A stretch of 64,000 nucleotides of DNA, from sequence record PZ445487.1. One strand, written 5' to 3'. The position numbers and the translations under genes were made by a program. The stretch comes from a phage. Shown one piece after another: positions 21,987-53,761 of this stretch (position 1 is its first letter; the number at the start of each line of letters is the position of its first letter). The notes under the pieces are model-generated. The model did not search any database and was not told the DNA's origin. It saw only the letters and a program-made list of their open reading frames with translations.

Positions 21987-22451
21987 ATGGCGCGTAATAC
22001 GCTGGACATCTTAAAACTTTCAGCTGTCAACGATGAGGCCAGCATTGTTGACTGTATGGTTGAAGTTCAATTGAACCAAGACAAACCAGGGATTTTCCTG
22101 GGTATCAAGGAAACGCTGAGTCGGATAGGGGTTAACACTCGTCAAGAGCCTAACACCTTGTATCAAACGTGCCATATCCTGCATAAATTTGGCAGATATC
22201 ACATCGTGCATTTCAAGCATTTGTTCATGCTAGATGGGCACTACAACGGCTTTACGCGTGAAGATGTCCTGCGTATGAATCGGATTATACGGCTTCTGGA
22301 GCAATGGAATATGGTTAAGATCTTGCATCCGGAACAAATAACCGAAGTGGCTGACATGTCTCGGATCAAAGTTGTAAAACATGACCAAGTTTCTGAGTGG
22401 AAATTGGTTCCAAAATACACTATTCGCCCAAGTCGGGCAAAAAGCGAATAA
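21987..22451 (+). CDS. regA: Translational repressor RegA
   Basis: KETLSRIGV, LYQTCHILHKFGRYHIVHFKHLFMLDG and EWKLVPKYTI match T4 RegA blocks; has about 23 extra N-terminal residues if the SD-supported ATG at 21987 is used. Confidence 0.8.
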   Translation: MARNTLDILKLSAVNDEASIVDCMVEVQLNQDKPGIFLGIKETLSRIGVNTRQEPNTLYQTCHILHKFGRYHIVHFKHLFMLDGHYNGFTREDVLRMNRIIRLLEQWNMVKILHPEQITEVADMSRIKVVKHDQVSEWKLVPKYTIRPSRAKSE

Positions 22452-22467
22452 CTGGAGTCGCTATATT

Positions 22468-23337
22468 ATGACAACTACATTTAATAAAAACGTGAGATTG
22501 AATTTGGCTTTTGGTAATGCGGCTGGAGATATTACAGCCCCTGACTTCGGTAAAATTCGCAATCAGGCCAAACTGGTTCTGGAAGAGACCCGCGAATTAC
22601 TGGAAGCGGCTTATTTCGACCACGAGGTGAAAATTGAGTTCACTGCATCTCCGCGAGTCCTGAAAGAACCTGCTGTTGTCGACATCAAAGACATTATGCG
22701 CCAGATTCTGGACGCTCAGGGTGATATCACAACAGTCAATGACGGCGTGGCACACATTGCTGGTTTCAACGGCGATGAGTGCTTGCAGCGTGTTTATGCC
22801 TCCAACATGAGCAAATTTATTCGCTCAGAAGATGAAGTCGGTCCGGCACTGGAATATTATTATTCACGCGGTTTCCCAGATGGCCAGTTACGTGTTGAAG
22901 GTGAATTCCCTCAGGCATGCATCAAAGTGAATGAGACTGTGATGTGGAATGGCAAAGAATATCCGAAAGGAAAATTCCTGAAAAACATGGCTGTGTTCAA
23001 AGAGCCTGATTTCTCTGATATGCTGACGAATACCCCTTCCCGTCAGATCAATGACATCGTTGCCAGCATGGCAATTGAAGAAGGTCAGGTATTTGTTGAT
23101 GATTTGAACGGCGTGGCGTTGGTATCTCCAAAAACGTTGGAAATAATTCTTTCTATGGCAGTTGAAAAATCTTCTCGACCCGTAGATGTTAACGGCCAAA
23201 TTGAAAGTTATGTGCCAGCGTATATCATTAACGATACCAATATGCCTAAGCTGTGTGGGGTGTGGGGTGCTAATGTTCGTGTATACGCGTGCGCACCTGT
23301 TCAAAACACTGTGACACACCTCTCTCGCTTCGATTAA
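22468..23337 (+). CDS. Hypothetical protein (290 aa), possible MazG-like NTP pyrophosphatase fold at the N-terminus
   Basis: AKLVLEETRELLEAAY ... DIKDIMRQILDAQGDI loosely fits the all-alpha NTP-PPase EExxE...D pattern; T4 has gene 43 after regA, absent here. Confidence 0.4.
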   Translation: MTTTFNKNVRLNLAFGNAAGDITAPDFGKIRNQAKLVLEETRELLEAAYFDHEVKIEFTASPRVLKEPAVVDIKDIMRQILDAQGDITTVNDGVAHIAGFNGDECLQRVYASNMSKFIRSEDEVGPALEYYYSRGFPDGQLRVEGEFPQACIKVNETVMWNGKEYPKGKFLKNMAVFKEPDFSDMLTNTPSRQINDIVASMAIEEGQVFVDDLNGVALVSPKTLEIILSMAVEKSSRPVDVNGQIESYVPAYIINDTNMPKLCGVWGANVRVYACAPVQNTVTHLSRFD

Positions 23338-23406
23338 TATAATCCGTTATTCACTAAACAACAGAGGCTATAATGGCCTCTGTTTTTGTATTCTAGAGAG
23401 GATACC

Positions 23407-24612
23407 ATGAAAGATAAACCACATGACATCCCATATTGCGGTGTCCGTGAAACCAAAATCAAATCAGCCCATCCTATGTTAAGTTCATTCCACCGCCAGC
23501 TGGCATATGAATGGATGAGGGATCGTTATGCGATACATGTCAAGAAGGACGTGCAATGCCTTCCAGCGCCATGGACGGATAATCCGGTATTACGCCAAGT
23601 CAAGTTTTGTAACGTGCGGAGAGAGCACGATAGGCAGTCTCGAAATTTGATCAATAATATCATCCTCGATCAGGATCTCACGCTATCTGACAAAATGTTC
23701 AACTGTGTATTGTTCCGCATGTACAACATGTGGGAACCTATACAGGCTTTGGGTGGTCCATGGACGATCGAAGAATTCGGAAACATAAATCTTGAATGGT
23801 GTCGAGATGTTCTTCAGGAATTCGAATCTAAAGGTGGCAAAGTTTTCACCAATGCGTTTAATACAGGCGGTCTGAAACAATGCCTGGCTTTCCCTGAACT
23901 AGTTGTCAACCACAAGGAGCAACGCTTTGGCGGCATGAAGGTAAAAGTCCATCGGGTTGGCGGTGTTATAGATGAAATGGATTACAAGGTTGCCAAGAAG
24001 CTGGCCGAAGATAATCCTGGTGAATACAAAATAGAAGGCTGGGAACCATACATGCCGATGCGAGTCATCCGCTCTTTGAAGGCATTCGTCAACAAACACC
24101 CTCATTACTTTGATCGCCTCAGGGAATTTAGCCGTCCCGACTCTGTTTACCAGGCGATGTATGACGACATTGAGGGGCTTGGACCATTCTTGGCATACCA
24201 GATTTGGGTTGATTTTACATACATCGATGAATATCCATTCAGTGAAAACCACTTCACTATCGCTGGTCCAGGTTGCCGTGCTGGTATCGATCTGTTATTT
24301 TTGGACAAGGACGGCATGACGCATGAAGAATGCATATTCTGGGTTCGTGATCATCAAGATCAATTGTTCGCTCAGTACGGGTATAAACGTAATGAATTTT
24401 GGTCGGCAGAAGAACCGGAAGACCGTTGCATGAATGTTATGCAGTTGGAGAACATGTTCTGTGAACTTCAGAAATATACCCGCTGCGTTGAGGCGGTGAT
24501 GCGCGGGGAGAAACCTCGAGGAAAGGTGGGGTATAATGGTGGTGAAGTTAATCAGCCATTACAGAAGACTCCCGTTCGTTCTATTAATCTGTTAGAGAAG
24601 ATGAAAAAATGA
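23407..24612 (+). CDS. Hypothetical protein (401 aa), possible helix-hairpin-helix motif
   Basis: SD agagagga upstream; DIEGLGPFLAYQIWVDF ... AGPGCRAGID is reminiscent of an HhH-GPD element; no P-loop. Confidence 0.45.
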   Translation: MKDKPHDIPYCGVRETKIKSAHPMLSSFHRQLAYEWMRDRYAIHVKKDVQCLPAPWTDNPVLRQVKFCNVRREHDRQSRNLINNIILDQDLTLSDKMFNCVLFRMYNMWEPIQALGGPWTIEEFGNINLEWCRDVLQEFESKGGKVFTNAFNTGGLKQCLAFPELVVNHKEQRFGGMKVKVHRVGGVIDEMDYKVAKKLAEDNPGEYKIEGWEPYMPMRVIRSLKAFVNKHPHYFDRLREFSRPDSVYQAMYDDIEGLGPFLAYQIWVDFTYIDEYPFSENHFTIAGPGCRAGIDLLFLDKDGMTHEECIFWVRDHQDQLFAQYGYKRNEFWSAEEPEDRCMNVMQLENMFCELQKYTRCVEAVMRGEKPRGKVGYNGGEVNQPLQKTPVRSINLLEKMKK

Positions 24613-25016
24613 AACCCGTAAAACATCATCGTTCATGGAAAGTATGCCCAGCGTGTTCAAGTCGGGCGACAAAATTGTTCAACATGAATACTGGGAAATA
24701 TGAATGTCAAGTCTGTCGGCATCATTATGATGATCCAAAATGTCGATCTTTGGTCGACAAAATTTATAAATTTATCATTTTGTTGGGTAATTGCGAGCAA
24801 TATCAATATACCGTGTATGGTGATAGTTTAAGCCAGATCGATAAACATCTTTTGAAATTGATTTCGAAATACGATAAAGAAAGCAAGCGCCCTGTGCGCG
24901 TTGTGAGTACTCCAAAGGGTTATCCAAAGGGAACAAGATCAGTTACGGTTGTTGGTTACACCAGTTATGACGGGAAACGGTTCAGAAGTATTCGAGTAAA
25001 CATGATTCCCGTTTAA
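24609..25016 (+). CDS. Zinc-ribbon protein (135 aa)
   Basis: CPAC...(19)...CQVC motif near the N-terminus; ATGA overlap with the preceding gene. Confidence 0.45.
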   Translation: MKPVKHHRSWKVCPACSSRATKLFNMNTGKYECQVCRHHYDDPKCRSLVDKIYKFIILLGNCEQYQYTVYGDSLSQIDKHLLKLISKYDKESKRPVRVVSTPKGYPKGTRSVTVVGYTSYDGKRFRSIRVNMIPV

Positions 25017-25112
25017 ACTTTTCAATAAATCTTTTCAGCGTATATTGACCTCACTTTAACGACGCGCCCCGATAAGGGCGCTCACTTTGAACTGAAACAG
25101 GAAGACTATACC

Positions 25113-27131
25113 ATGGCAGAATTCAAACCCTTCGCAACGGCAGTTAATAACAACGTGCTGGCGATGTCCGCAACTGGTCTGTTCATGACCAATATCGATA
25201 AAGATGCTCTTTGGGATCTGTATCTGGCATCTTTCCCTGCTGGTACTAACCCGCTGTACCGCGAACGTACTGAACACGATTGCACCTGCTGTAAACAATT
25301 CATCCGTAACATCGGCGGTGTTGTCACCATCGATTCAGAGCTGAACGTAATTTCTATCTGGGACAACATTGATCTGGGCAATGAATATGACGTGGTGGCT
25401 GCGGCTCTTTCCGCGTATGTCAAACAACACGCAATCGTCGATGTTTATTTTAACGATTCTGCTAAAGTCGGCCTGTCTCACAATCACGAATCTGGTGAAG
25501 ATGGCAAAATCCGTACTTACAATCATTTCCATACCCAATTACTTGGTAGCTATGTTCTGCGTCCGGACGCAATCGCTTCGAAAAAAGGTGAAATCCGCCA
25601 GGCTATTGAATTGTTTGAACGCGGTCTGCGTGAAATTACTCTGGAATCAGCTGAAATCGTTCTGGAACTGATTGACCAGAATTCTCTGTATCGCGGCGCA
25701 GAACACAAAGCAGCAGTGAAGGGATTTGTTGAAACCAAAAAGGCATATGAACAAGTCCCCGAATCAGCCCGTTCTCTTTGGGCATGGCATACTGGATACC
25801 GTTCAAACAATCATGTTCCACACGGCATCCGCAACACAGTTATCGGCACTCTGCTGACAGATATCAGTGAAGGCGTGGAACTGGAAAAGGCTGTTAAATC
25901 GTTTGAATCCAAAGTTGCTCCGGCGAACTACAAACGTCCGACAGCGCTGGTTTCAAAATCCATGATCGAAAACGCTCAGAAAGAAGTTATTGCTCTGGGT
26001 TTGGAAGACTCACTGGCGCGTCGTTATGCGGTTTACGATGATCTGACAATCAACAACGTTCTGTTCGCAGATCTGGCTGCTCAGAAAGCGATGGATCCGT
26101 TTGCACAGCTGGCCGCCGAAGTGAAAACTCCGACCAAGTCCCTGGAAAAAGTTGAAGAGATCAGCGTTGATGATTTCCTGAGCAATGTTCTGCCAAAAGC
26201 GCATTCAATGGAAGTGCTTGTAGAGAATTCTCATACTAGCAACCTGATGTCCCTGGTTGCTCCGGCGAACCCAGATGCGCCTAACCTGTTCAAGTGGAAC
26301 AACGGTTTCTCCTGGTCTTACAACGGTGAAGTGACCGATTCCATTAAAGAACGTGTAAAGGCTGCTGGTGGTAAAGTTGACGGGTATCTGCGCGTTTCCT
26401 TGGCGTGGCACAACAACGACGACCTCGATCTGCATATGTTCAACAACATGGAGCACGTTTACTTCCGCGATCGCCGCTCTATGACAGGTGCCCATCTGGA
26501 TATCGATATGAACGGTATGGATGGTATTGATCCAAACCGCGCTCCGGTGGAAAATATCATCTTTACAGATGAAAGCAAGCTGCGCGATGGTGAATACCGT
26601 TTCGAAATCCACAACTACAATCAACGTGAAAAAATCGACGAAGGGTTTGAAGTCGAAGTAGAATACAAAGGCGCAACGCATCGTTTCAGCCATCCTGGCC
26701 TGAAAGATCAGGGACGTATCACCGCAGTCATCTTGACTGTTAAAGACAAACAAGTTGTTGGCATTAAGTCCGAACTGGCTAATGTTGATAAGTCTAAAGA
26801 AGTTTGGGGTATCAAGACTGCGACCTTCCAGAAAGTACAGCTGGTCCTGAACTCACCAAACCATTGGGATGGCGAGCAGACAGGCAACAAGCACGTGTTC
26901 TTCATCCTGGAAGGTTGTGCTAATCCTGAAGGTACTCGTGGTTTCTACAACGAATATCTGAAGCCGGAACTGGATAAACATCGTAAGGTTTTTGAAATGT
27001 TGGGTAGTAAAATGAAAGTCCAGCCGAATGAAAACCAACTGTCTGGTCTGGGATTCTCGACGACGCAACGCAACCACGTGTTCGTCAAAGTGTCCGGCGC
27101 GTTTAACCGTACTGTAAAAGTCATCTTCTAA
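25113..27131 (+). CDS. Large hypothetical protein (672 aa)
   Basis: Long uninterrupted ORF with good RBS context; no canonical motif recognised (no Walker A, no polymerase or ligase motifs). Confidence 0.55.
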   Translation: MAEFKPFATAVNNNVLAMSATGLFMTNIDKDALWDLYLASFPAGTNPLYRERTEHDCTCCKQFIRNIGGVVTIDSELNVISIWDNIDLGNEYDVVAAALSAYVKQHAIVDVYFNDSAKVGLSHNHESGEDGKIRTYNHFHTQLLGSYVLRPDAIASKKGEIRQAIELFERGLREITLESAEIVLELIDQNSLYRGAEHKAAVKGFVETKKAYEQVPESARSLWAWHTGYRSNNHVPHGIRNTVIGTLLTDISEGVELEKAVKSFESKVAPANYKRPTALVSKSMIENAQKEVIALGLEDSLARRYAVYDDLTINNVLFADLAAQKAMDPFAQLAAEVKTPTKSLEKVEEISVDDFLSNVLPKAHSMEVLVENSHTSNLMSLVAPANPDAPNLFKWNNGFSWSYNGEVTDSIKERVKAAGGKVDGYLRVSLAWHNNDDLDLHMFNNMEHVYFRDRRSMTGAHLDIDMNGMDGIDPNRAPVENIIFTDESKLRDGEYRFEIHNYNQREKIDEGFEVEVEYKGATHRFSHPGLKDQGRITAVILTVKDKQVVGIKSELANVDKSKEVWGIKTATFQKVQLVLNSPNHWDGEQTGNKHVFFILEGCANPEGTRGFYNEYLKPELDKHRKVFEMLGSKMKVQPNENQLSGLGFSTTQRNHVFVKVSGAFNRTVKVIF

Positions 27132-27168
27132 TTGATTTGACCACAAATTCGTAATAAGGAACAATGAA

Positions 27169-27540
27169 ATGTTTGATCAAGCAACCCGTTTAAAACTGCG
27201 TTTCAACTCTAACAAAGGTCTGCTGTCTGTTGAGCAGGTTTGGGATCTGAACCTGAATGCCCTAAACGAACTGGCGAAAGACCTCAGCCGTCAGGTGAAG
27301 GAAGCCGCCAGCGATGAAGAAGATTTCATCGGCGTGAAAAGCGCAGTCGACTCTCAGTTACAACTGCGTTTCGATATCGTGAAAGCGATCATCGGTGTTA
27401 AACTGAAAGAACGTGACGAAAGCGCAACCGCCGCCGAACGTAAAGCGAACAACCAGGTTATTCTGGAACTGATCCAGCGTAAGAAACAGCAGGAGCTTGA
27501 AGGTAAATCTCTTGAAGAACTGGAAGCGCTGTTGAAATAA
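27169..27540 (+). CDS. Hypothetical coiled-coil protein (123 aa)
   Basis: Charged helical ORF with SD aaggaa, followed by a terminator hairpin. Confidence 0.45.
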   Translation: MFDQATRLKLRFNSNKGLLSVEQVWDLNLNALNELAKDLSRQVKEAASDEEDFIGVKSAVDSQLQLRFDIVKAIIGVKLKERDESATAAERKANNQVILELIQRKKQQELEGKSLEELEALLK

Positions 27541-27562
27541 TCTGTCGGCTCCGGCCTGAGCA

Positions 27563-27588
27563 ACCCCGCCGTGTGCGGGGTTTCTTTT
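27563..27588 (+). terminator. Rho-independent terminator
   Basis: ccccgc-cgtgt-gcgggg followed by tttcttttgg. Confidence 0.5.
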
Positions 27589-27599
27589 GGAGAAATATT

Positions 27600-27836
27600 A
27601 TGAAACAAATTACTAAGACAGTACAAATCACCCAATATCAAACGGATGACGGCAGAGTGTTCGATACTCTTGGTCAGGCCGAACATTATGAGAAGATGAA
27701 GTCTGGTATTCGCAAGGTATGCCCTTCTTGTGATGGCAAAGGTCGCGACTCTCCGTCGGGCGACGGGCGTGATATGACGACTTGTCATTATTGTGGTGGT
27801 AAAGGCTGGGTAGAAAAGAAAGAGATATGGGGTTAA
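27600..27836 (+). CDS. Small zinc-finger protein with two CxxCxGKG repeats (78 aa)
   Basis: CPSCDGKG and CHYCGGKG resemble DnaJ-type zinc-finger repeats; SD ggag upstream. Confidence 0.5.
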   Translation: MKQITKTVQITQYQTDDGRVFDTLGQAEHYEKMKSGIRKVCPSCDGKGRDSPSGDGRDMTTCHYCGGKGWVEKKEIWG

Positions 27837-28246
27837 TGAAACCTGTCATCTGTGATTACTGCGGTCAACCTGCCCAATACGTCGGGGGCGATGCTGTATA
27901 CCCCCACCGCCCCGACCTCCGCAATCTGAAGTTCTGGGTATGCTCGCCATGCGACGCTCGTGTGGGTTGCCATACCCATGGGGATGGTAGACAACCTCTG
28001 GGAAGGATGGCGAATGCCGCTCTCCGTGCTGCTAAGCAGGAAGCTCATAGGTCGTTTGACCCTATCTGGAAAAGTGGGCAGAGGAGCAGGAGTGATGCTT
28101 ACAGCTGGCTGGCTCATAATCTGGGGATCAAGAAGCGCGATTGCCATATCGGCTTGTTCGATATCGATATGTGCCGTAAAGTAGTCGCTGTGTGTAATCA
28201 ACTAAAGGCACAAGATAATGTCAAAGGAAATACAAGAAGCATTTGA
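27836..28246 (+). CDS. Zinc-finger protein (136 aa)
   Basis: CDYCG...CSPCDARVGCH cysteine cluster; TAATG overlap with the preceding gene. Confidence 0.45.
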   Translation: MKPVICDYCGQPAQYVGGDAVYPHRPDLRNLKFWVCSPCDARVGCHTHGDGRQPLGRMANAALRAAKQEAHRSFDPIWKSGQRSRSDAYSWLAHNLGIKKRDCHIGLFDIDMCRKVVAVCNQLKAQDNVKGNTRSI

Positions 28247-28469
28247 AAAATTATCTCAGGTAATGACCGACTGCAACCGCCGAAATTACTGCGATGAAGC
28301 GTATACCAAATTGAAAACTGCTGTTGAAACCGAGCTGGCAGGTCTTTCCGTTTTCAAAGATATTCAGACCGAAGTGCTATATCTGTCGGATGAAGATTTA
28401 AGGCGTTGCCCCCGCAAGATTTACCAATTACTGGATCGTTTGGTGAAAGTGGGGGTGAATAATGGGTAA
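28218..28469 (+). CDS. Hypothetical protein (83 aa)
   Basis: ORF overlapping the neighbouring gene ends. Confidence 0.35.
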   Translation: MSKEIQEAFEKLSQVMTDCNRRNYCDEAYTKLKTAVETELAGLSVFKDIQTEVLYLSDEDLRRCPRKIYQLLDRLVKVGVNNG

Positions 28470-29187
28470 TCGTGAAGGGATTAAACTCACACCAGAACTT
28501 CTGAAGTCACATATTGCTGAAGTGATTTATGAAGACCGTGAAGTTGGTGGTCACCGCGTCATTACATGCCATTTCAAGATGGACAATGGGTTCGTTGTGT
28601 GGGGTAAGAATAGTTCCACATCGGTAGACCCTGCCAACTTCGATGAAGAAATAGGCAAGCAGCTGGCCTATGAAAAGACCCTTTCTCAACTGTGGGAACT
28701 GGAAGCATATCGCGCGATAGTAGAAAAGCAGATCATCGATGTGTCCGCCAAAGATGATAAGATCAACATTGATGAATATGTGTCAGAAAGGGAAGCGATA
28801 CATGAGATGGGTGGTTTTGAATTCCTTGAGGGTAAAGGACAATCCGTCGTGTTTCGTCATCCCAAGGATCCAAGTCGGGGATTTCGAGTTGAATTTGTTC
28901 GCACCGATAATGAACGTTATGACGAACGGCGTAATGGTGAAGCAAGATCTTTGGTGGAAGCGTATCTTCGCTCGTTTATGACTTCTGAAGATCTAAATTC
29001 TGAACTTGTCTTGCGTTTGGCGAAAACGTGTAATGCTGCTTCAGGGGATTATCCGTGGTGTGACCTGTCAGAAGAAAAACGCCAAGCAGCTTGTGATCGT
29101 GTTAAGAAATTCTTGTTAGATCCGAAAGCCCAACCTGGTGATTCCGTGGGGGCGCTGTATAGAGCCATCGTGGTGTCATACTTGTAA
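28462..29187 (+). CDS. Hypothetical protein (241 aa), N-terminal Gp49-like region
   Basis: LTPELLKSHIAEV...HRVITCHFKMDNGFVVWG resembles a conserved phage family I recall as Gp49-like; low certainty. Confidence 0.4.
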   Translation: MGNREGIKLTPELLKSHIAEVIYEDREVGGHRVITCHFKMDNGFVVWGKNSSTSVDPANFDEEIGKQLAYEKTLSQLWELEAYRAIVEKQIIDVSAKDDKINIDEYVSEREAIHEMGGFEFLEGKGQSVVFRHPKDPSRGFRVEFVRTDNERYDERRNGEARSLVEAYLRSFMTSEDLNSELVLRLAKTCNAASGDYPWCDLSEEKRQAACDRVKKFLLDPKAQPGDSVGALYRAIVVSYL

Positions 29188-29454
29188 TTCTTCAAAAGTC
29201 TTTCAAAATCAATAACGTCCGGCAAATTGCTGGGCGTTTCAATTAACAAGCCAAGGTATAATGGCCCAATTGTAAAGCGAGGGAAATTACTTTGCCCAAA
29301 CCATTTTTGCGTTCAGGAGTTGACTCTCTTGACTCACAGTTTAAACCCAGCGAAGTTTTAATTCAACAGATTGAAACTAATCGCGAATTCATAGAACACA
29401 TGCTGGCGAAGCCGGAAGGTGAAGCCGTCCATACCACTAAAGAAGGTAATAACG

Positions 29455-31671
29455 ATGATTGAATCATTAACATTTAAGAATGCGGTTGCGACCGTCGCGC
29501 CGTCTAACCATGTAATCGTTGTGGATATCTCCGGTTCCATGTATCGTTCACTTCCAGAAGTCCGTAAGCATCTGAAGGAGAACCTGCCTTCCCTGGTGAA
29601 ACCGGAAGATACTGTGAGCATCCTTTACTTTTCATCTCGCGGTGATTTCGGAACGGTATTTGCCGGACGTCAGATTAACAGTGCAACTGATCTCAGTGAG
29701 ATCAATAATTTAATTGACCGTTTCCTGAAGCCTTCTGGTTGTACTGGTTTTGTTGAGCCGCTGAAATTGGCTGCGGAAACTGCCATTAGCTTGAATAAAC
29801 CTGGTTATGTTAATAACCTGGCATTCATGACCGACGGATATGACAACTGCTGGCGTTCTAATGAAATCCTGGATGCCGCTGAAGTACTGCCCAAAGCGTT
29901 TGATAACATTACCTTCATCGAATACGGTTGGTATTGTAATCGCGAACTGCTGGCGCTAATGGCAGAACGTTCTGGTGCGACCCACGTATTCGCCGAAGGC
30001 CAGAATGAATATCAGACCGAATTGGAAAACGTGCTAAAAACTTCTTCACCGAAAGTGGTGGTCGATGTTCCCCTGGTTTACACCCATGCCATTTATGTTG
30101 AAAATGGCGTGGCGACTGTTTTAGCTGTGCATCCTGATGAAGAGCACCCTATTGGCCACGTCAGCATCCCTGAAAGCGTTTCTCAGCTGTGGGTTGTAAA
30201 CCCCAACATGATCGACCAGCTGGATAATCTGGCAGACATCCAAGCGGCATACGTGCTGGCATTTTACGGCGTGTATACCATGGACGCAGATTTGGTTTGG
30301 GCTGCGCTGAAGAAAACGGGTGACGTCCGCTTCATCAAACAATACAGCAACTGTTTCACCAAGCAGGATTACTCCAACATCAAAGTCGATCTGACTCAGG
30401 CTATCGTAGACGAATCTCTGCGAGGAGTTGATGGCATCGATTATAATATGGTTCCGGCTGAAGACGCCACCACCATTGTTGATGTTCTGACGTATTTGGC
30501 TGAAGCAGATGTCTCTATCGTCACCAAGCATCCGCTATTCTCTTACAAGAGCATTGGGCGCGGTACTATACAAAAAGTTGACGACACCGAAGACAAGTTG
30601 GCCGAAGAGATTGCGAATGCGACTTCTAAAGAAGAGCGTAAAGCCCTGGCGCTCAAACTGGCCGAGCACGAAGATTGGACGCCGGAATTCAATCCAGCAG
30701 ATGATAAAGGGATTGTCCCGATCAGCAATTTGGTCTATAATTCAGAACGTCCTAACATCAGTGTGCAGACAGTTCAACACGGAACGGTTATTGTGCCTGA
30801 GTTTGTACAGAAGAAATATGAACTTCCTGAAGAGCTGGGAACCTGGCGTTATCGCAATTACACCATTGTCAAGGATGGTATCATCAACCTGAAAACAATG
30901 CCTATCACTGCAGATTCTCCGATTGTTCGGGCTAAGGTGGCACAGGATTTGACTGCCATGGGTGTTCATGTGTTTGGTGGGCCGGAAGTCTTCATTGTAA
31001 ATCTGGAAAGTGTCCCAATGGTTAACCGCGCCATGACAAAGAATATCAGTGCTGCTGAATTCTTTGCAGACAATGTGCGCCGTGAAGCATTGAAGGCAAA
31101 GCAAAAAGTTCTGAAATTCTACCGTGATGAACTGGTTGGCAAAGGCAACGCTACTGGTCTGGCTTCAAAATATGGCAAAGAAGCGGCTGATTTCCTGTCA
31201 GCAAACGGCATTCGCGACTATGGATTTTCACCGAAGACTTCTTCTGTAGAATCAACCGATGTCTATATGAGTCGTGAATTGAATGTGAAAATCAAAGGCG
31301 CATCTTCACTGCCGAGCATCGCGTCTGTTATCAAAAAACAGACGGACGGTAAAAAACTGAATGTCGCTGATCAGCTGATCGCTAATGCCCTGGCCGAATA
31401 CAATGCGTTTGTTAAATCGCCGATGATCACCAGCGTACCGGAAGAGACTCAGAAAAAGCTGATCGAAAGTTGGATTGGTGATGCAGCAAAAGCAGCTATC
31501 AACGAAGTTCGATCTCTGAACAAAACGCTGTCCAAGGTAGTTTATGGGATTGTTGCAGGCCATGGTTGGTTTACCGACCTGGATTTGGAAGAATCCACTA
31601 TGGATGTGGAAGTTGATGGGGTGAAATACACTGTCACTGCCGAACTGGCTGAAAAAGAAGTCAAAATCTAA
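29455..31671 (+). CDS. von Willebrand factor A (vWA) domain protein (738 aa)
   Basis: N-terminus carries the MIDAS motif in VIVVDISGSMY (DxSxS) with downstream T and D positions typical of vWA; about 550 aa of unassigned sequence follow. SD aagaagg before ATG 29455. Confidence 0.55.
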   Translation: MIESLTFKNAVATVAPSNHVIVVDISGSMYRSLPEVRKHLKENLPSLVKPEDTVSILYFSSRGDFGTVFAGRQINSATDLSEINNLIDRFLKPSGCTGFVEPLKLAAETAISLNKPGYVNNLAFMTDGYDNCWRSNEILDAAEVLPKAFDNITFIEYGWYCNRELLALMAERSGATHVFAEGQNEYQTELENVLKTSSPKVVVDVPLVYTHAIYVENGVATVLAVHPDEEHPIGHVSIPESVSQLWVVNPNMIDQLDNLADIQAAYVLAFYGVYTMDADLVWAALKKTGDVRFIKQYSNCFTKQDYSNIKVDLTQAIVDESLRGVDGIDYNMVPAEDATTIVDVLTYLAEADVSIVTKHPLFSYKSIGRGTIQKVDDTEDKLAEEIANATSKEERKALALKLAEHEDWTPEFNPADDKGIVPISNLVYNSERPNISVQTVQHGTVIVPEFVQKKYELPEELGTWRYRNYTIVKDGIINLKTMPITADSPIVRAKVAQDLTAMGVHVFGGPEVFIVNLESVPMVNRAMTKNISAAEFFADNVRREALKAKQKVLKFYRDELVGKGNATGLASKYGKEAADFLSANGIRDYGFSPKTSSVESTDVYMSRELNVKIKGASSLPSIASVIKKQTDGKKLNVADQLIANALAEYNAFVKSPMITSVPEETQKKLIESWIGDAAKAAINEVRSLNKTLSKVVYGIVAGHGWFTDLDLEESTMDVEVDGVKYTVTAELAEKEVKI

Positions 31672-31679
31672 ATTCAACT

Positions 31680-31700
31680 GGCGGGGAAACCCGCCTTCAT
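31680..31700 (+). terminator. Rho-independent terminator after the vWA gene
   Basis: ggcgggg-aaa-cccgcc then ttcatttt. Confidence 0.5.
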
Positions 31701-31714
31701 TTTGAGATATGCTT

Positions 31715-32026
31715 ATGTCAAACAAACCAACTTATGTTGAAGTAATGCGTGTTCTGGCTCAGTACGCTTGTGACAACCTGAACATGGAAACTTGGCGCAA
31801 CGGGGATCACAAGGACAAGTTTGATAACATTGATGATAATATCGATGCTTTAGCGCCGTTACGGGTTAAGAATGATCTCGGCGGTGACGATCTTGACATG
31901 ATTGAGCTGGTCATGGAAATCGAAGAAGAGTACGATGTAGAAATTAGTGACGAGTGGGTGGGTAAACATGGAGATGATCCTACCCTCGGAGAGTTAGCTG
32001 AACTCGTCGTTGCCCTGCGCAAGTAA
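31715..32026 (+). CDS. Acyl carrier protein-like protein with Asp in place of the phosphopantetheine-attachment Ser
   Basis: DLGGDDLDMIELVMEIEEEYDVEISDE aligns to the ACP core DLGADSLD(T/M)VELVMALEEEF...I.DE, but the modified Ser is D (codon gat). Confidence 0.5.
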   Translation: MSNKPTYVEVMRVLAQYACDNLNMETWRNGDHKDKFDNIDDNIDALAPLRVKNDLGGDDLDMIELVMEIEEEYDVEISDEWVGKHGDDPTLGELAELVVALRK

Positions 32027-52079: not shown

Positions 52080-52697
52080 ATGGGCAAAATCTTTATACCT
52101 TCTCACTCAGAAGGTTGTCAAATCGCTGCAAAATTTCTACACAAACAAATGAATTGTGGTGCTGTGTTCGTAGAACCAAATTCATTCGATAATCGTGAAT
52201 CCCCTGACGCCATCGGGTTCAGACCTGGGGGTTGTTCTATATTAATGGAAGTTAAAGTCTCCCGCGCCGACTTCCTGACAGACAAAAAGAAACCTCATCG
52301 CATGAATCCTTCCATAGGCATGGGAGCATATCGTTTCTATGTTTGCCCAGCAGATGTTATTAAAATTGAAGACCTCCCTCCCAAATGGGGTTTGTTGTAC
52401 TTCACCCCTAGAAAATCTTTGAAGCCCGTTCACGTTCCGAATATGCAATATTCCTCTTTGTCTTCACCGGAACATTATGCATCATATTTGTCTAAATCTT
52501 TGGGCAAAAGAAGTCCTACAGATATCCCTCCTTATCTATTAGGGTACAAACAGATGCTGGAAGAATTTGCCCACTTTGATCGCAATCAGGTTGCGGAACA
52601 AAATATTCTGTATGGGGCTTGGCGACAGCTTTGCATAGCTCAAAGTCGCGGGGTGGATTATAATGTGACAGAAGTGTTCCAGAGGCCAAATATCTAA
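52080..52697 (+). CDS. Hypothetical protein, possible PD-(D/E)xK nuclease fold
   Basis: DAIGFRPGGCSILMEVKVS fits a D...(I/L)xEVK core; otherwise unassigned. Confidence 0.4.
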   Translation: MGKIFIPSHSEGCQIAAKFLHKQMNCGAVFVEPNSFDNRESPDAIGFRPGGCSILMEVKVSRADFLTDKKKPHRMNPSIGMGAYRFYVCPADVIKIEDLPPKWGLLYFTPRKSLKPVHVPNMQYSSLSSPEHYASYLSKSLGKRSPTDIPPYLLGYKQMLEEFAHFDRNQVAEQNILYGAWRQLCIAQSRGVDYNVTEVFQRPNI

Positions 52698-53761
52698 TGA
52701 AATTCTTGGACGAACAATACATCAATTTTCTCGCCCCCCGACTTGATAAATTCAGTTGGGAACGTGTTGGCGCTGTCGCCAAATTTCGTTGCCCATTATG
52801 TGGGGATTCTAAGAAGAGTGCCAACAAGCGTCGTGGTCACTTCTTTTATGATCGTGATGACGATGTGTTTCGTTTCAAGTGCCACAACTGTAATGAAATG
52901 AGCGGTTGGGCGTTTGAATTCTGGTTGAAGAAGTTTGACGAGCGTCTGTATAATGAATACAACCTTGAAAAATTCAGAATCATGGGGGATACCAGTTCCC
53001 GCCCGTTACAAAAACTCAAACCACTACAGCGCCTGACCCAGACAGCACGTATCGGTTCTCAGGTCGCCAAACGGGATGAAGAGCACCTTGGGAATATGAT
53101 ACGCCTTGATCTTCTTGACCGTGATCATATCGCCCGTCGTTATGTTGAAGGCAGGGGAATGCCGGAGAGCACGTTATCTTTGTTGTATTACAGCAGGAAT
53201 TTTCGTCAAGATCTTCTGAGTTTCGAAACGGATGTTGAGAAGCAGAAGAAGATACCCGAAGATGAGCGGCTGGTAATCCCATTCTGGACCCAAGACGGGC
53301 GCATGAAGATAGTTCAGGGGCGCGCATTCGGCGATAACCTTCCTGATGGGGTATTACGGTATGCCACTGTCAAGCCTAAGAACGAAGATACTAAGATCTA
53401 CGGGGAAGAGCGCATCATTTGGAACAAAACAAAGTTGGTAGTAGAAGGTCCAATTGATAGCTTGTTTCTACCCAATTGTCTTGCGACTGCCGATGCCGAC
53501 TTATTAAGTGCTAAGGGAGACATCTATATCCCCGATAACCAATACAGGAACAAACAAGTTTGTGACGGTATACAGAAGATGATAGACAGCGGAGTCAAAG
53601 TCGTTCTGTTTCCACCGGAAATACCGTGGAAGGATATCAATGATATGGTTCGCCCCGACAAGGGAAATATCCCGATACGGGATCTGCTTCAGATCATAGC
53701 CAAGAACGTATATCAGGGACTGTCGGCGTCCTTACGATTTTCTGACTTGAGGAAGATATGA
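52697..53761 (+). CDS. 61: DNA primase (gp61-like)
   Basis: Zinc ribbon FRCPLCGDSKKS...KCHNCN; blocks PESTLSLLYY, ERLVIPFW, KIYGEERI and VVEGPIDSLFLPN parallel T4 gp61; C-terminal ...QGLSASLRFSDLRKI resembles the T4 end. Confidence 0.85.
   Translation: MKFLDEQYINFLAPRLDKFSWERVGAVAKFRCPLCGDSKKSANKRRGHFFYDRDDDVFRFKCHNCNEMSGWAFEFWLKKFDERLYNEYNLEKFRIMGDTSSRPLQKLKPLQRLTQTARIGSQVAKRDEEHLGNMIRLDLLDRDHIARRYVEGRGMPESTLSLLYYSRNFRQDLLSFETDVEKQKKIPEDERLVIPFWTQDGRMKIVQGRAFGDNLPDGVLRYATVKPKNEDTKIYGEERIIWNKTKLVVEGPIDSLFLPNCLATADADLLSAKGDIYIPDNQYRNKQVCDGIQKMIDSGVKVVLFPPEIPWKDINDMVRPDKGNIPIRDLLQIIAKNVYQGLSASLRFSDLRKI

What the first reader, a model, noticed from the sequence alone, without database searches (positions are those of the whole stretch)
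27600..28246. Cluster of three small zinc-finger proteins inside the accessory block
One has two DnaJ-type CxxCxGKG repeats, another a CxxC...CxxC...CH cluster, and a third zinc-ribbon protein lies upstream at 24609..25016. Small zinc-binding proteins in phages often bind host RNA polymerase or other host factors.
Basis: seen in the sequence. Interest (0 to 1): 0.35.

Follow-up and report, generated by a model that had tools for sequence, protein, structure and literature searches.

The report
Three unrelated small zinc-binding phage proteins
Three small cysteine-rich genes of phage CBA120 are real and probably bind zinc, but they are unrelated, separately dispensable proteins from already catalogued families of unknown function, so the finding is ordinary.

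Summary
The window is Escherichia phage CBA120 (Kuttervirus), 100% identical to NC_016570. The three genes exist as described: orf154 (24609-25016), orf149 (27600-27836) and orf148 (27836-28246).

They are not a functional cluster. Profile comparison finds no homology among them. orf148 is a full-length DUF3268 (PF11672) protein, present in about 7,400 50%-identity clusters across many phage groups. It has a C4 ribbon plus a second near-invariant H46/H71/H104/C113 set. It lies next to, or is rarely fused with, DNA-metabolism genes. orf149 has a single C4 site of DnaJ/anti-TRAP type, scores below the Pfam cut-offs, and has a patchy distribution. orf154 is specific to Ackermannviridae and always follows the 5-hmdU DNA kinase gene.

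Phage ViI lacks both orf149 and orf154, and PhaxI lacks orf149. No evidence points to RNA polymerase binding. My best guess is that orf148 and orf154 are basic nucleic-acid-binding accessories of DNA metabolism, and that orf149 is a small protein-protein binder. All three functions are inferred, not shown. Interest is low.

The parts
24609..25016 (+). orf154 (CBA120_gp120), 135 aa, pI 9.8. It has an N-terminal C4 zinc ribbon (C13, C16, C33, C36; nt 24645-24716) and a C-terminal alpha/beta domain with no recognisable fold.
   Evidence: ORF and translation. ATGA overlap with the upstream 5-hmdU DNA kinase gene. phrog_16119 at E 6e-92, with only sub-threshold Zn-ribbon Pfam hits. Four Cys invariant in 9 homologues. 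AF2 pLDDT 70 and no PDB fold match. Always placed after the kinase gene in four Ackermannviridae genera and two metagenomic contigs. pI.
23386..24612 (+). 5-hmdU DNA kinase gene (orf156; RefSeq start 23407). It is the upstream partner of orf154 by start/stop overlap.
   Evidence: PF18723 HMUDK_hel, E 1.7e-83. Annotation. Terminator-like hairpin just upstream at 23360-23384.
27562..27588 (+). Intrinsic-terminator-like hairpin (AACCCCGC-CGTGT-GCGGGGTT followed by TCTTTT) between orf151 and orf149. It is conserved in PhaxI and SPTD1, where it directly precedes the DUF3268 gene.
27600..27836 (+). orf149 (CBA120_gp117), 78 aa, pI 8.4. It has an N-terminal YQTDDGxxFxxxxQAEH motif and one C4 site built from two DnaJ-like CxxCxGxG knuckles (nt 27720-27743 and 27783-27806).
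   Evidence: phrog_12574 at E 2e-41. DnaJ_CXXCXGXG scores 20.8 bits (cut-off 32.7) and Anti-TRAP scores 19.6 bits (cut-off 32). Homologues occur in only 36 Kuttervirus records, 43 more distant phage records (<60% identity; the sampled ones are jumbo phages such as PBECO4/121Q, plus the ~48-kb Lewi) and a few metagenomic phage contigs. Cys conservation.
27836..28246 (+). orf148 (CBA120_gp116), 136 aa, pI 9.4, a DUF3268 protein. It has a C4 zinc ribbon (C6, C9, C36, C39; nt 27851-27952) and a basic three-helix domain. A second near-invariant ligand set is H46 (27971-27973), H71 (28046-28048), H104 (28145-28147) and C113 (28172-28174).
   Evidence: PF11672 at E 6.4e-38, covering 2-120 of 121 profile positions. 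Conservation. AF2 pLDDT 93. No solved-structure relative by fold or sequence. Structural relatives among uncharacterised proteins of many phages. 7,416 representative clusters. pI.
28218..28469 (+). 83-aa ORF that overlaps the end of orf148 and the start of orf146. It completes a run of four overlapping genes (orf149, orf148, this ORF, orf146). It is not a zinc protein.
   Evidence: phrog_9847 at E 1.3e-56. Annotated in FrontPhageNews, SPTD1 and LPEK22 but not in the CBA120 RefSeq record.

Best explanation
These are three real, unrelated small metal-binding proteins. They sit in the replication and DNA-modification part of the CBA120 genome and do not form one system.

(a) orf148 is a typical member of the very large phage family DUF3268.
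- Shown: an N-terminal C4 zinc ribbon, and a second near-invariant His3-Cys set.
- Inferred: the His3-Cys set forms a second structural metal site that staples the ribbon to a basic three-helix domain. The protein acts as a nucleic-acid-binding or replisome-docking accessory in phage DNA replication, recombination or repair.

(b) orf154 is an Ackermannviridae-specific basic protein with a C4 ribbon and a domain of no recognisable fold. It is translationally coupled to the 5-hmdU DNA kinase gene.
- Inferred: it is a dispensable DNA-binding helper or modulator acting around DNA hypermodification.

(c) orf149 is a sporadically distributed 78-aa protein with a single C4 knuckle of the DnaJ/anti-TRAP type.
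- Inferred: like anti-TRAP, it uses the zinc knuckle as a rigid protein-protein interaction surface against a host or phage target.

No target or activity is shown for any of the three.
For: Gene reality and metal ligands
- PHROG and Pfam hits support all three genes.
- The Cys ligands are conserved in all homologues examined.

Independence of the three
- hhalign probabilities are 0.3-65%, and the aligned parts cover only the CxxC knuckles.
- ViI lacks orf154 and orf149. SPTD1 lacks both. PhaxI lacks orf149.
- tblastn against phage records finds orf148 in 682, orf154 in 81 and orf149 in 79.

orf148 and DNA metabolism
- It lies next to Erf, SSB and YqaJ in the early-left (pL) operons of lambdoid prophages.
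- It lies next to a Cas4/RecB exonuclease, helicase, primase and MazG in Pseudomonas phage Guyu.
- It lies directly upstream of the DNA polymerase and helicase genes in Xanthomonas phage Mallos.
- It lies near thymidylate synthase, NrdG and RNase H in Enterococcus phage EFP01.
- Rare fusions exist with UDG, RNase H, NUDIX and an exonuclease.
- The helical domain has pI 10.2, with invariant R64, R85, Y89 and W78.

orf154
- It always sits immediately after the kinase gene, usually with overlapping stop and start, across four genera and two metagenomic contigs.
- pI is 9.8.

orf149
- The best matches, all sub-threshold, are the DnaJ cysteine-rich domain and anti-TRAP.
Against: - No biochemical or genetic data exist for any of the three. 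Searches for DUF3268 and PF11672 found only annotation mentions.
- DUF3268 neighbourhoods are often just small unknown early genes, so the DNA-metabolism link is not universal.
- All fusion proteins are single-contig singletons and could be gene-calling artefacts.
- The AF2 model of orf154 is only moderate (pLDDT 70).
- ViI lacks orf154, and ViI hypermodification was reconstituted from five other proteins. Any role of orf154 in modification is therefore non-essential.
- The glycines of the DnaJ motif are not conserved in orf149 homologues.
Confidence: 0.55

Rival explanations
1. One or more of the three proteins binds host RNA polymerase (or sigma) and redirects transcription, filling the gap left by the absence of AsiA/MotA-type regulators in CBA120.
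For: Kutter et al. 2011 report no homologues of the T4 early or middle regulators and no recognisable early promoters in CBA120 (PMC3184105). From background knowledge, some phage Zn-finger proteins do bind RNA polymerase: Ogr/Delta, Q and TraR-like proteins. orf149 has a weak hit to the Q-like phrog_127 (E 5.8e-4). The only PDB fold matches of the orf148 ribbon are Rpb9/TFIIS-type ribbons, and these are not significant (E about 0.8).
Against: Pfam at E<=0.1 listed no Ogr/Delta, DksA/TraR or Q family for any of the three. orf149 and orf154 are missing from ViI and many other Kutterviruses, so they cannot be the general regulator. DUF3268 is abundant in temperate phages, where it sits beside recombination genes.
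Confidence: 0.12
2. One or more of them, most plausibly orf149, is a counter-defence or host-takeover protein that neutralises a host immunity factor. It would be carried as optional cargo in a variable hotspot.
For: orf149 has a patchy distribution across unrelated phage groups: some Kutterviruses, jumbo phages of the PBECO4/121Q group and ~46-48-kb phages. In other Ackermannviridae the same block carries NAMPT and PRPP-synthetase genes; by background knowledge this pair restores NAD+ against NAD-depleting defences. orf149 is 99.2% identical at nucleotide level between phages whose flanking genes are about 90-93% identical. DUF3268 lies in lambdoid early-left (pL) operons, where many anti-defence genes are found.
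Against: There is no match to any PADLOC model, although that library holds defence rather than anti-defence proteins. No experimental link exists. A divergent lineage (L037) keeps orf149, orf148 and orf154 at 73-79% identity, which looks more like vertical inheritance with losses than mobile cargo.
Confidence: 0.2
3. DUF3268 (orf148) is an enzyme, for example a degenerate HNH-like or other metal-dependent nuclease or hydrolase. The His/Cys set would be a catalytic metal site rather than a structural one.
For: H46, H71, D75, H104 and C113 are near-invariant, and a YPHR-x-DL motif is strongly conserved. The CxxC...YPH...CxxC layout loosely resembles zinc-stabilised HNH motifs, and a profile hit to the HNH region of Hpy99I was found at E 0.9.
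Against: H24 is kept in only 150 of 214 sequences, and the residue after the second CxxC (the HNH metal-ligand position) is variable. The AF2 model shows a three-stranded ribbon with no helix after the second knuckle. There is no HNH Pfam hit. Four protein ligands suggest a structural site. Fusions to real enzymes (UDG, RNase H) fit a targeting module better.
Confidence: 0.08
4. orf148 and/or orf154 are sequence-specific transcription regulators with a zinc ribbon followed by a helical DNA-binding domain, an architecture like MqsA.
For: orf148 has an N-terminal C4 ribbon with MqsA-like Cys spacing and a basic helical C-terminal domain. A WLAxxLGI stretch looks like a helix-turn-helix. Low-probability fold hits to XRE regulators, lambda repressor and homeodomains were seen.
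Against: Those fold hits have probability 0.1 or less and E above 3. MqsA structures were not among the 50 PDB fold matches listed. The would-be recognition helix carries the conserved metal ligand H104. The family sits in widely different genomic contexts with no conserved adjacent target.
Confidence: 0.1

Closest known systems
Pfam PF11672 DUF3268 ('zinc-finger-containing domain'); PHROG 1934
   Same: orf148 matches the whole model (130 bits, positions 2-120 of 121). It shares every conserved Cys/His and the YPHRPDL motif. The homologue in phage PhiSH19 was already labelled DUF3268 in 2011 (PMC3220722).
   Different: Nothing distinguishes orf148 from the family. The family itself has no known function and no solved structure. 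The Rfam-listed 'DUF3268' RNA motif, found upstream of some family members, is absent here.
DnaJ cysteine-rich domain (PF00684) and Bacillus anti-TRAP / RtpA (PF15777, PDB 3lcz)
   Same: orf149 has two CxxCxGxG knuckles that would form one C4 zinc centre. Anti-TRAP (53 aa) has the same arrangement, and each zinc centre of DnaJ is built the same way. These are its best hits in Pfam, NCBIfam and PDB.
   Different: All scores are below the curated cut-offs. orf149 has two repeats, not four, and no J domain. It has an extra conserved 38-aa N-terminal module. The GxG glycines are lost in homologues (CPTCNGTQ, CPACKGLT, CTECNKKG). It occurs in phages, not in a trp regulon.
Generic two-knuckle zinc ribbons (SprT-type PF17283, IS1595-type PF12760, TFIIE-alpha ribbon)
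   Same: orf154 residues 11-40 have CxxC-16-CxxC with ribbon-like strands. Weak hits to these models were found (E 0.003).
   Different: All hits are below threshold. The C-terminal 90 residues have no sequence or fold relative. The family is confined to Ackermannviridae and tied to the 5-hmdU DNA kinase gene.
Phage zinc-finger RNA-polymerase effectors (P2 Ogr/P4 Delta, lambda Q, TraR/DksA-like)
   Same: They are small phage-encoded C4 zinc proteins.
   Different: None of these families appeared in the Pfam scan at E<=0.1 for any of the three proteins. Only a weak Q-like PHROG hit was found. Domain order and cysteine spacing differ.

Membership tests
DUF3268 (PF11672), tested on orf148 | Score above the Pfam gathering threshold, with full-length coverage of the model | tested here: met
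   130.3 bits against a cut-off of 28.4. Residues 6-125 of the 139-aa form match profile positions 2-120 of 121.
DUF3268 (PF11672), tested on orf148 | N-terminal four-cysteine zinc finger conserved across the family | tested here: met
   C6, C9, C36 and C39 are present in at least 211 of 214 aligned family members.
DUF3268 (PF11672), tested on orf148 | Actual metal binding (zinc stoichiometry) | not testable with these tools
   This needs ICP-MS or a PAR assay on purified protein. The prediction is two metal ions per chain.
DnaJ central cysteine-rich domain (PF00684), tested on orf149 | Score above the gathering threshold | tested here: not met
   20.8 bits against 32.7. TIGR02349 DnaJ_bact scores 21 against 377.
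DnaJ central cysteine-rich domain (PF00684), tested on orf149 | Four CxxCxGxG repeats forming two zinc centres, flanked by a J domain and C-terminal domains | tested here: not met
   Only two repeats are present in 78 aa, and there is no J-domain hit.
DnaJ central cysteine-rich domain (PF00684), tested on orf149 | GxG glycines conserved after each CxxC | tested here: not met
   They are present in CBA120 but lost in homologues: CPTCNGTQ in PBECO4, CPACNGER in L037, and CPACKGLT and CTECNKKG in L024.
Anti-TRAP / RtpA (PF15777, NF058604), tested on orf149 | Score above the curated cut-offs | tested here: not met
   19.6 bits against 32 (Pfam) and 21.1 against 65 (NCBIfam). The PDB 3lcz match has E 0.34.
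Anti-TRAP / RtpA (PF15777, NF058604), tested on orf149 | One zinc bound by two CxxCxGxG knuckles in a very small protein | tested here: inconclusive
   The two-knuckle, four-Cys layout is present and conserved. However, orf149 has an additional conserved N-terminal module, and metal binding is untested.
RNA-polymerase-binding zinc-finger phage regulators (Ogr/Delta, TraR/DksA, Q) | Profile match to one of these families | tested here: not met
   None was listed by Pfam at E<=0.1 for any of the three proteins. The only signal is phrog_127 (Q-like) at E 5.8e-4 over orf149 residues 6-75.
RNA-polymerase-binding zinc-finger phage regulators (Ogr/Delta, TraR/DksA, Q) | Physical binding to host RNA polymerase | not testable with these tools
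   This needs pull-down or two-hybrid assays.
C4 zinc ribbon (generic fold), tested on orf154 | Two CxxC knuckles about 15-20 residues apart on beta-hairpins, conserved in homologues | tested here: met
   C13xxC16 and C33xxC36 are invariant in 9 sequences. AF2 places strands at residues 22-25 and 30-33. The specific Pfam ribbon families are below threshold.
HNH / His-Me finger nucleases, considered for orf148 | Conserved catalytic His after the first strand, a metal-binding His or Asn after the second CxxC, and a beta-beta-alpha fold | tested here: not met
   H24 is kept in only 150 of 214 sequences. Position 40 is variable. There is no helix after the second knuckle and no HNH Pfam hit.

The most novel reading that the evidence does not exclude
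orf154 would be a DNA-binding partner of the 5-hmdU DNA kinase. Its gene is stop/start-coupled to the kinase gene in CBA120, Klebsiella phage May and the L037 contig, and directly follows it everywhere examined. It would tune which thymidines, or what fraction of them, become hypermodified. Natural orf154-plus and orf154-minus Kutterviruses would then differ in their DNA modification pattern. In parallel, DUF3268 would be an unsolved two-metal fold that docks onto DNA or the replisome.
Probability: 0.12. Interest if true: 0.55.

Novelty: already known. Interest (0 to 1): 0.2.

Why it matters
It matters little as it stands. The genes are already annotated in a reference phage, and their families are already catalogued (Pfam DUF3268; PHROGs 1934, 12574, 16119). 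The useful residue is threefold.

1. DUF3268 is among the larger phage-borne families still lacking both a function and a solved structure. This work finds about 7,400 clusters at 50% identity. It sharpens the picture to a two-site metal protein associated with DNA-metabolism genes.
2. Natural presence/absence variants (CBA120 against PhaxI, ViI and SPTD1) provide ready-made isogenic-like comparisons for orf149 and orf154.
3. orf154's constant coupling to a DNA-hypermodification kinase gives one concrete, testable hypothesis.

Tried and rejected
- Sequence search of all three proteins, and of a DUF3268 profile, against PDB found nothing significant. The best hits were a MasE small subunit at E 0.0013 (ribbon only) and Hpy99I at E 0.9.
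- Fold search of the orf148 model (pLDDT 93) and the orf154 model (pLDDT 70) against PDB gave no match with E below 0.4.
- A fold search against viral models found only uncharacterised proteins.
- PADLOC gave no hits. NCBIfam gave only sub-threshold DnaJ and RtpA hits.
- An Rfam scan of 22000-32000 found no DUF3268 RNA motif. The only hit was a chance RsmY match over the terminator.
- Literature searches for DUF3268 and PF11672 found no functional study. No CBA120 transcriptome paper was found.
- Paralogy among the three proteins was rejected.
- An HNH nuclease reading of orf148 was rejected; see the membership tests.
- I first read orf149 as a recent insertion, because PhaxI and SPTD1 lack it at a clean junction and it is 99.2% identical at nucleotide level inside ~90-93% flanks. 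I softened this reading. An uncultured lineage (L037) carries all three genes at 73-79% identity, which fits ancestral presence with repeated loss.
- C45 and C103 as a covarying ligand pair showed only a weak association (odds ratio 2.9, P 0.02, uncorrected for phylogeny).
- A genome-contig scan for orf149 relatives found none.
- The geometry of the second metal site could not be measured because model coordinates are not exposed.

Full report
**Identity of the window.** The stretch 24000-29500 is 100% identical to Escherichia phage CBA120 (NC_016570 / JN593240, reverse strand 80802-86302), a Kuttervirus of the Ackermannviridae. The three ORFs are annotated there as hypothetical proteins: orf154 (gp120), orf149 (gp117) and orf148 (gp116). 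The surrounding genes are, upstream, the sliding clamp, clamp loader, RegA and MazG, and then a 5-hmdU DNA kinase (PF18723, E 1.7e-83). The order after that is orf154, a 672-aa protein, orf151, orf149, orf148, an 83-aa ORF, an N4-gp49/Sf6-gp66 family protein, a VWA protein and an acyl carrier protein.

**Checking the observation.**
- orf149 (27600-27836, 78 aa) carries CPSCDGKG and CHYCGGKG.
- orf148 carries C6xxC9, C36xxC39 and C45-H46.
- orf154 (24609-25016) carries C13xxC16 and C33xxC36.

Two start codons need refining.
- orf149 starts at ATG 27600, with a GGAG 6 nt upstream. The longer GTG 27573 form used in one GenBank record begins inside a terminator-like hairpin at 27562-27582.
- orf148 most likely starts at ATG 27836, overlapping the orf149 stop (TAATG). 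Homologues in PhaxI and SPTD1 begin MKPV/MKQV directly after the same ribosome-binding site.

That refutation fails.
- For orf148 the four ribbon cysteines are kept in at least 211 of 214 diverse relatives.
- For orf154 they are invariant in nine sequences down to 63% identity.
- For orf149 they are invariant in homologues down to 37% identity, and in two further copies.

A crude gene set of the window has about 87 genes, of which four carry two CxxC motifs. Three of those four lie within five consecutive genes, which a simulation puts at P about 0.018. This test is post hoc and only mildly unusual.

**The three proteins are not one thing.** Profile-profile comparison finds no homology beyond the CxxC knuckles (probabilities 0.3%, 28% and 65%). 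Their distributions differ sharply in tblastn against 50,697 phage records:

| Protein | Records matched | Where |
|---|---|---|
| orf148 | 682 | Salmonella, Pseudomonas, Vibrio, Enterococcus, Xanthomonas and many other phages |
| orf154 | 81 | all Ackermannviridae-type |
| orf149 | 79 | 36 Kutterviruses, plus 43 more distant phages (<60% identity) |

- The sampled distant orf149 relatives are jumbo phages of the PBECO4/121Q group, about 52% identical, plus the ~48-kb phage Lewi.
- A few metagenomic phage contigs also carry orf149 relatives.
- Phage ViI lacks both orf154 and orf149, as does SPTD1. PhaxI lacks orf149.
- The orf149 presence/absence junction is exact. The gene occupies the space between the terminator/ribosome-binding site and the orf148 start, and both edges carry ATGAAAC.
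- orf149 is 99.2% identical at nucleotide level between phages whose flanking genes are about 90-93% identical.
- An uncultured Ackermannviridae-like contig (L037) carries all three genes at 73-79% protein identity.

The trio is therefore old, and its members have been lost repeatedly and independently. orf149 relatives outside the family are never next to a DUF3268 gene. In the jumbo-phage group they sit among a phosphatase, a small 'hydrolase', a roughly 400-aa protein and a DNA ligase.

**orf148.** It is a full-length DUF3268 protein (PF11672, 130 bits against a cut-off of 28).
- The family is very large. A profile search of 1.84 billion representatives gave 7,416 clusters at E<=0.001 and 1,259 at E<=1e-30.
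- AlphaFold2 gives a confident model (pLDDT 93). It shows a three-stranded ribbon (residues 1-46) followed by three helices at 61-79, 85-96 and 110-134.
- No solved structure resembles the whole protein. The only PDB fold hits are non-significant Rpb9-type ribbons, and sequence and profile searches of PDB are empty. Structural relatives among predicted viral proteins are all uncharacterised.
- Besides the C4 ribbon, H46, H71, H104 and C113 are kept in 210-213 of 214 sequences. So are G44, G56, A59, R64, D75, W78, R85 and Y89, each in at least 212 of 214 sequences. The YPHR-x-DL motif is strongly but less uniformly conserved (150-206 of 214 per position).
- I infer a second, structural metal site that ties the ribbon to the helical domain. 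I could not verify its geometry.
- The helical domain is strongly basic (pI 10.2).

Context points to DNA metabolism in several places.
- In lambdoid prophages the gene lies in the early-left (pL) operon beside Erf, SSB or YqaJ.
- In Pseudomonas phage Guyu it overlaps a Cas4/RecB exonuclease gene, near helicase, primase and MazG genes.
- In Xanthomonas phage Mallos it lies directly upstream of the DNA polymerase and helicase genes.
- In Enterococcus phage EFP01 it is near thymidylate synthase, NrdG and RNase H.
- Rare longer family members are fused to UDG, RNase H, NUDIX or an exonuclease.

There are caveats. The fusions are all single-contig singletons, so they count at most as adjacency evidence. 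Other neighbourhoods are uninformative runs of small early genes. My committed reading is a nucleic-acid-binding or replisome-docking accessory of phage DNA replication, recombination or repair. This is an inference.

**orf149.** Its best matches are the DnaJ cysteine-rich domain (20.8 bits, cut-off 32.7), anti-TRAP (19.6, cut-off 32) and RtpA (21.1, cut-off 65). All are below threshold.
- It has two knuckles, enough for one C4 zinc centre, as in the 53-aa anti-TRAP protein.
- The GxG glycines are not kept in homologues.
- A conserved N-terminal YQTDDGxxFxxxxQAEH module has no annotated relative.

It therefore works like an anti-TRAP-type zinc knuckle but is not a member of that family. By analogy with anti-TRAP, a protein that binds and blocks another protein (background knowledge), I infer a small protein-protein binder. 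Its target is unknown.

**orf154.** It has a C4 ribbon followed by an alpha/beta domain with no sequence or fold relative (pLDDT 70), and it is very basic (pI 9.8).
- It always lies immediately downstream of the 5-hmdU DNA kinase gene in Kuttervirus, Taipeivirus, Miltonvirus and two metagenomic contigs.
- In CBA120, Klebsiella phage May and the L037 contig, its start overlaps the kinase stop.
- The ViI hypermodification (5-NeOmdU) was reconstituted from gp67, gp160, gp226, gp243 and gp247 (PMC8989533), and ViI has no orf154.

Any role in modification is therefore non-essential. I infer a dispensable DNA-binding helper or modulator.

Kutter et al. 2011 note that CBA120 lacks homologues of T4 AsiA and MotA and that its early and middle regulation is unexplained (PMC3184105). 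A role in transcription therefore cannot be excluded. However, none of the three proteins matches a known RNA-polymerase-binding zinc-finger family. Two of the three are absent from close relatives. The evidence for the third points elsewhere.

**Verdict.** The 'cluster' is three unrelated genes sitting together in a mosaic region. All three families were already catalogued, and the zinc-finger nature of DUF3268 is already in its Pfam description. No function is established. The finding is ordinary and of low interest, and the hypotheses it leaves are testable.

Noticed in passing
window 28218-28469 (+): An 83-aa ORF overlaps both the end of orf148 and the start of orf146. It has a strong PHROG match (phrog_9847, E 1.3e-56) and is annotated in several relatives, but it is missing from the CBA120 RefSeq annotation. 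In ViI its homologue (Vi01_125c) carries the gene label 'Putative dnaJ', although it has no DnaJ-like or zinc motif.
   Followed up: partly
L014 2411-4914; L015 5496-8008; L036 9408-10423 (equivalent to the window block 27540-29400): A pair of NAD-salvage genes (PRPP synthetase and nicotinamide phosphoribosyltransferase) is inserted at different points of this same block in other Ackermannviridae. In Taipeivirus UPM2146 it lies between orf151 and DUF3268. In Se-G it lies between orf146 and orf145. In contig L036 it follows the gp49-like gene. The block is therefore a hotspot for optional cargo.
   Followed up: partly
window 25113-27131 (+): The 672-aa orf153 is annotated 'putative DNA-directed RNA polymerase' in phages FrontPhageNews and Se-B. 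It had no Pfam hit in my scan, and homologues are only assigned DUF8224 (PF26675) in precomputed data. In ViI it is split into two CDS (Vi01_128c and 129c). The RNA polymerase label looks unsupported.
   Followed up: no
window 25020-25112: The intergenic stretch upstream of orf153 contains a GC-rich hairpin (GCGCCC-CGATAA-GGGCGC, 25064-25081). It is identical between CBA120 and SPTD1, although the sequence just upstream is completely different because of the orf154 presence/absence. It may be a conserved regulatory element.
   Followed up: no
window 27573-27599: One GenBank record (FrontPhageNews gp170) starts the orf149 homologue at a GTG inside the terminator hairpin, giving MRGFFWRNI.... 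The metagenomic protein P0007 has a similar MRGFF N-terminal extension. These are probably start-codon miscalls.
   Followed up: partly
window 27354-27788 (-): A 144-aa antisense ORF spans orf151 and orf149. It is almost certainly spurious, since both sense genes have strong PHROG support. It would nevertheless displace orf149 in a simple longest-ORF gene call.
   Followed up: no
window 52697-53761 (+): This is the only other protein in the window with two CxxC motifs (354 aa, CxxC at residues 32 and 62). It had no Pfam hit at E<=0.001.
   Followed up: no
L037 8272-8655: In this metagenomic contig the DUF3268 gene uses a GTG start one base after the stop of the orf149 homologue. The collection's gene caller missed it, so presence/absence counts based on called genes undercount the family.
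   Followed up: yes
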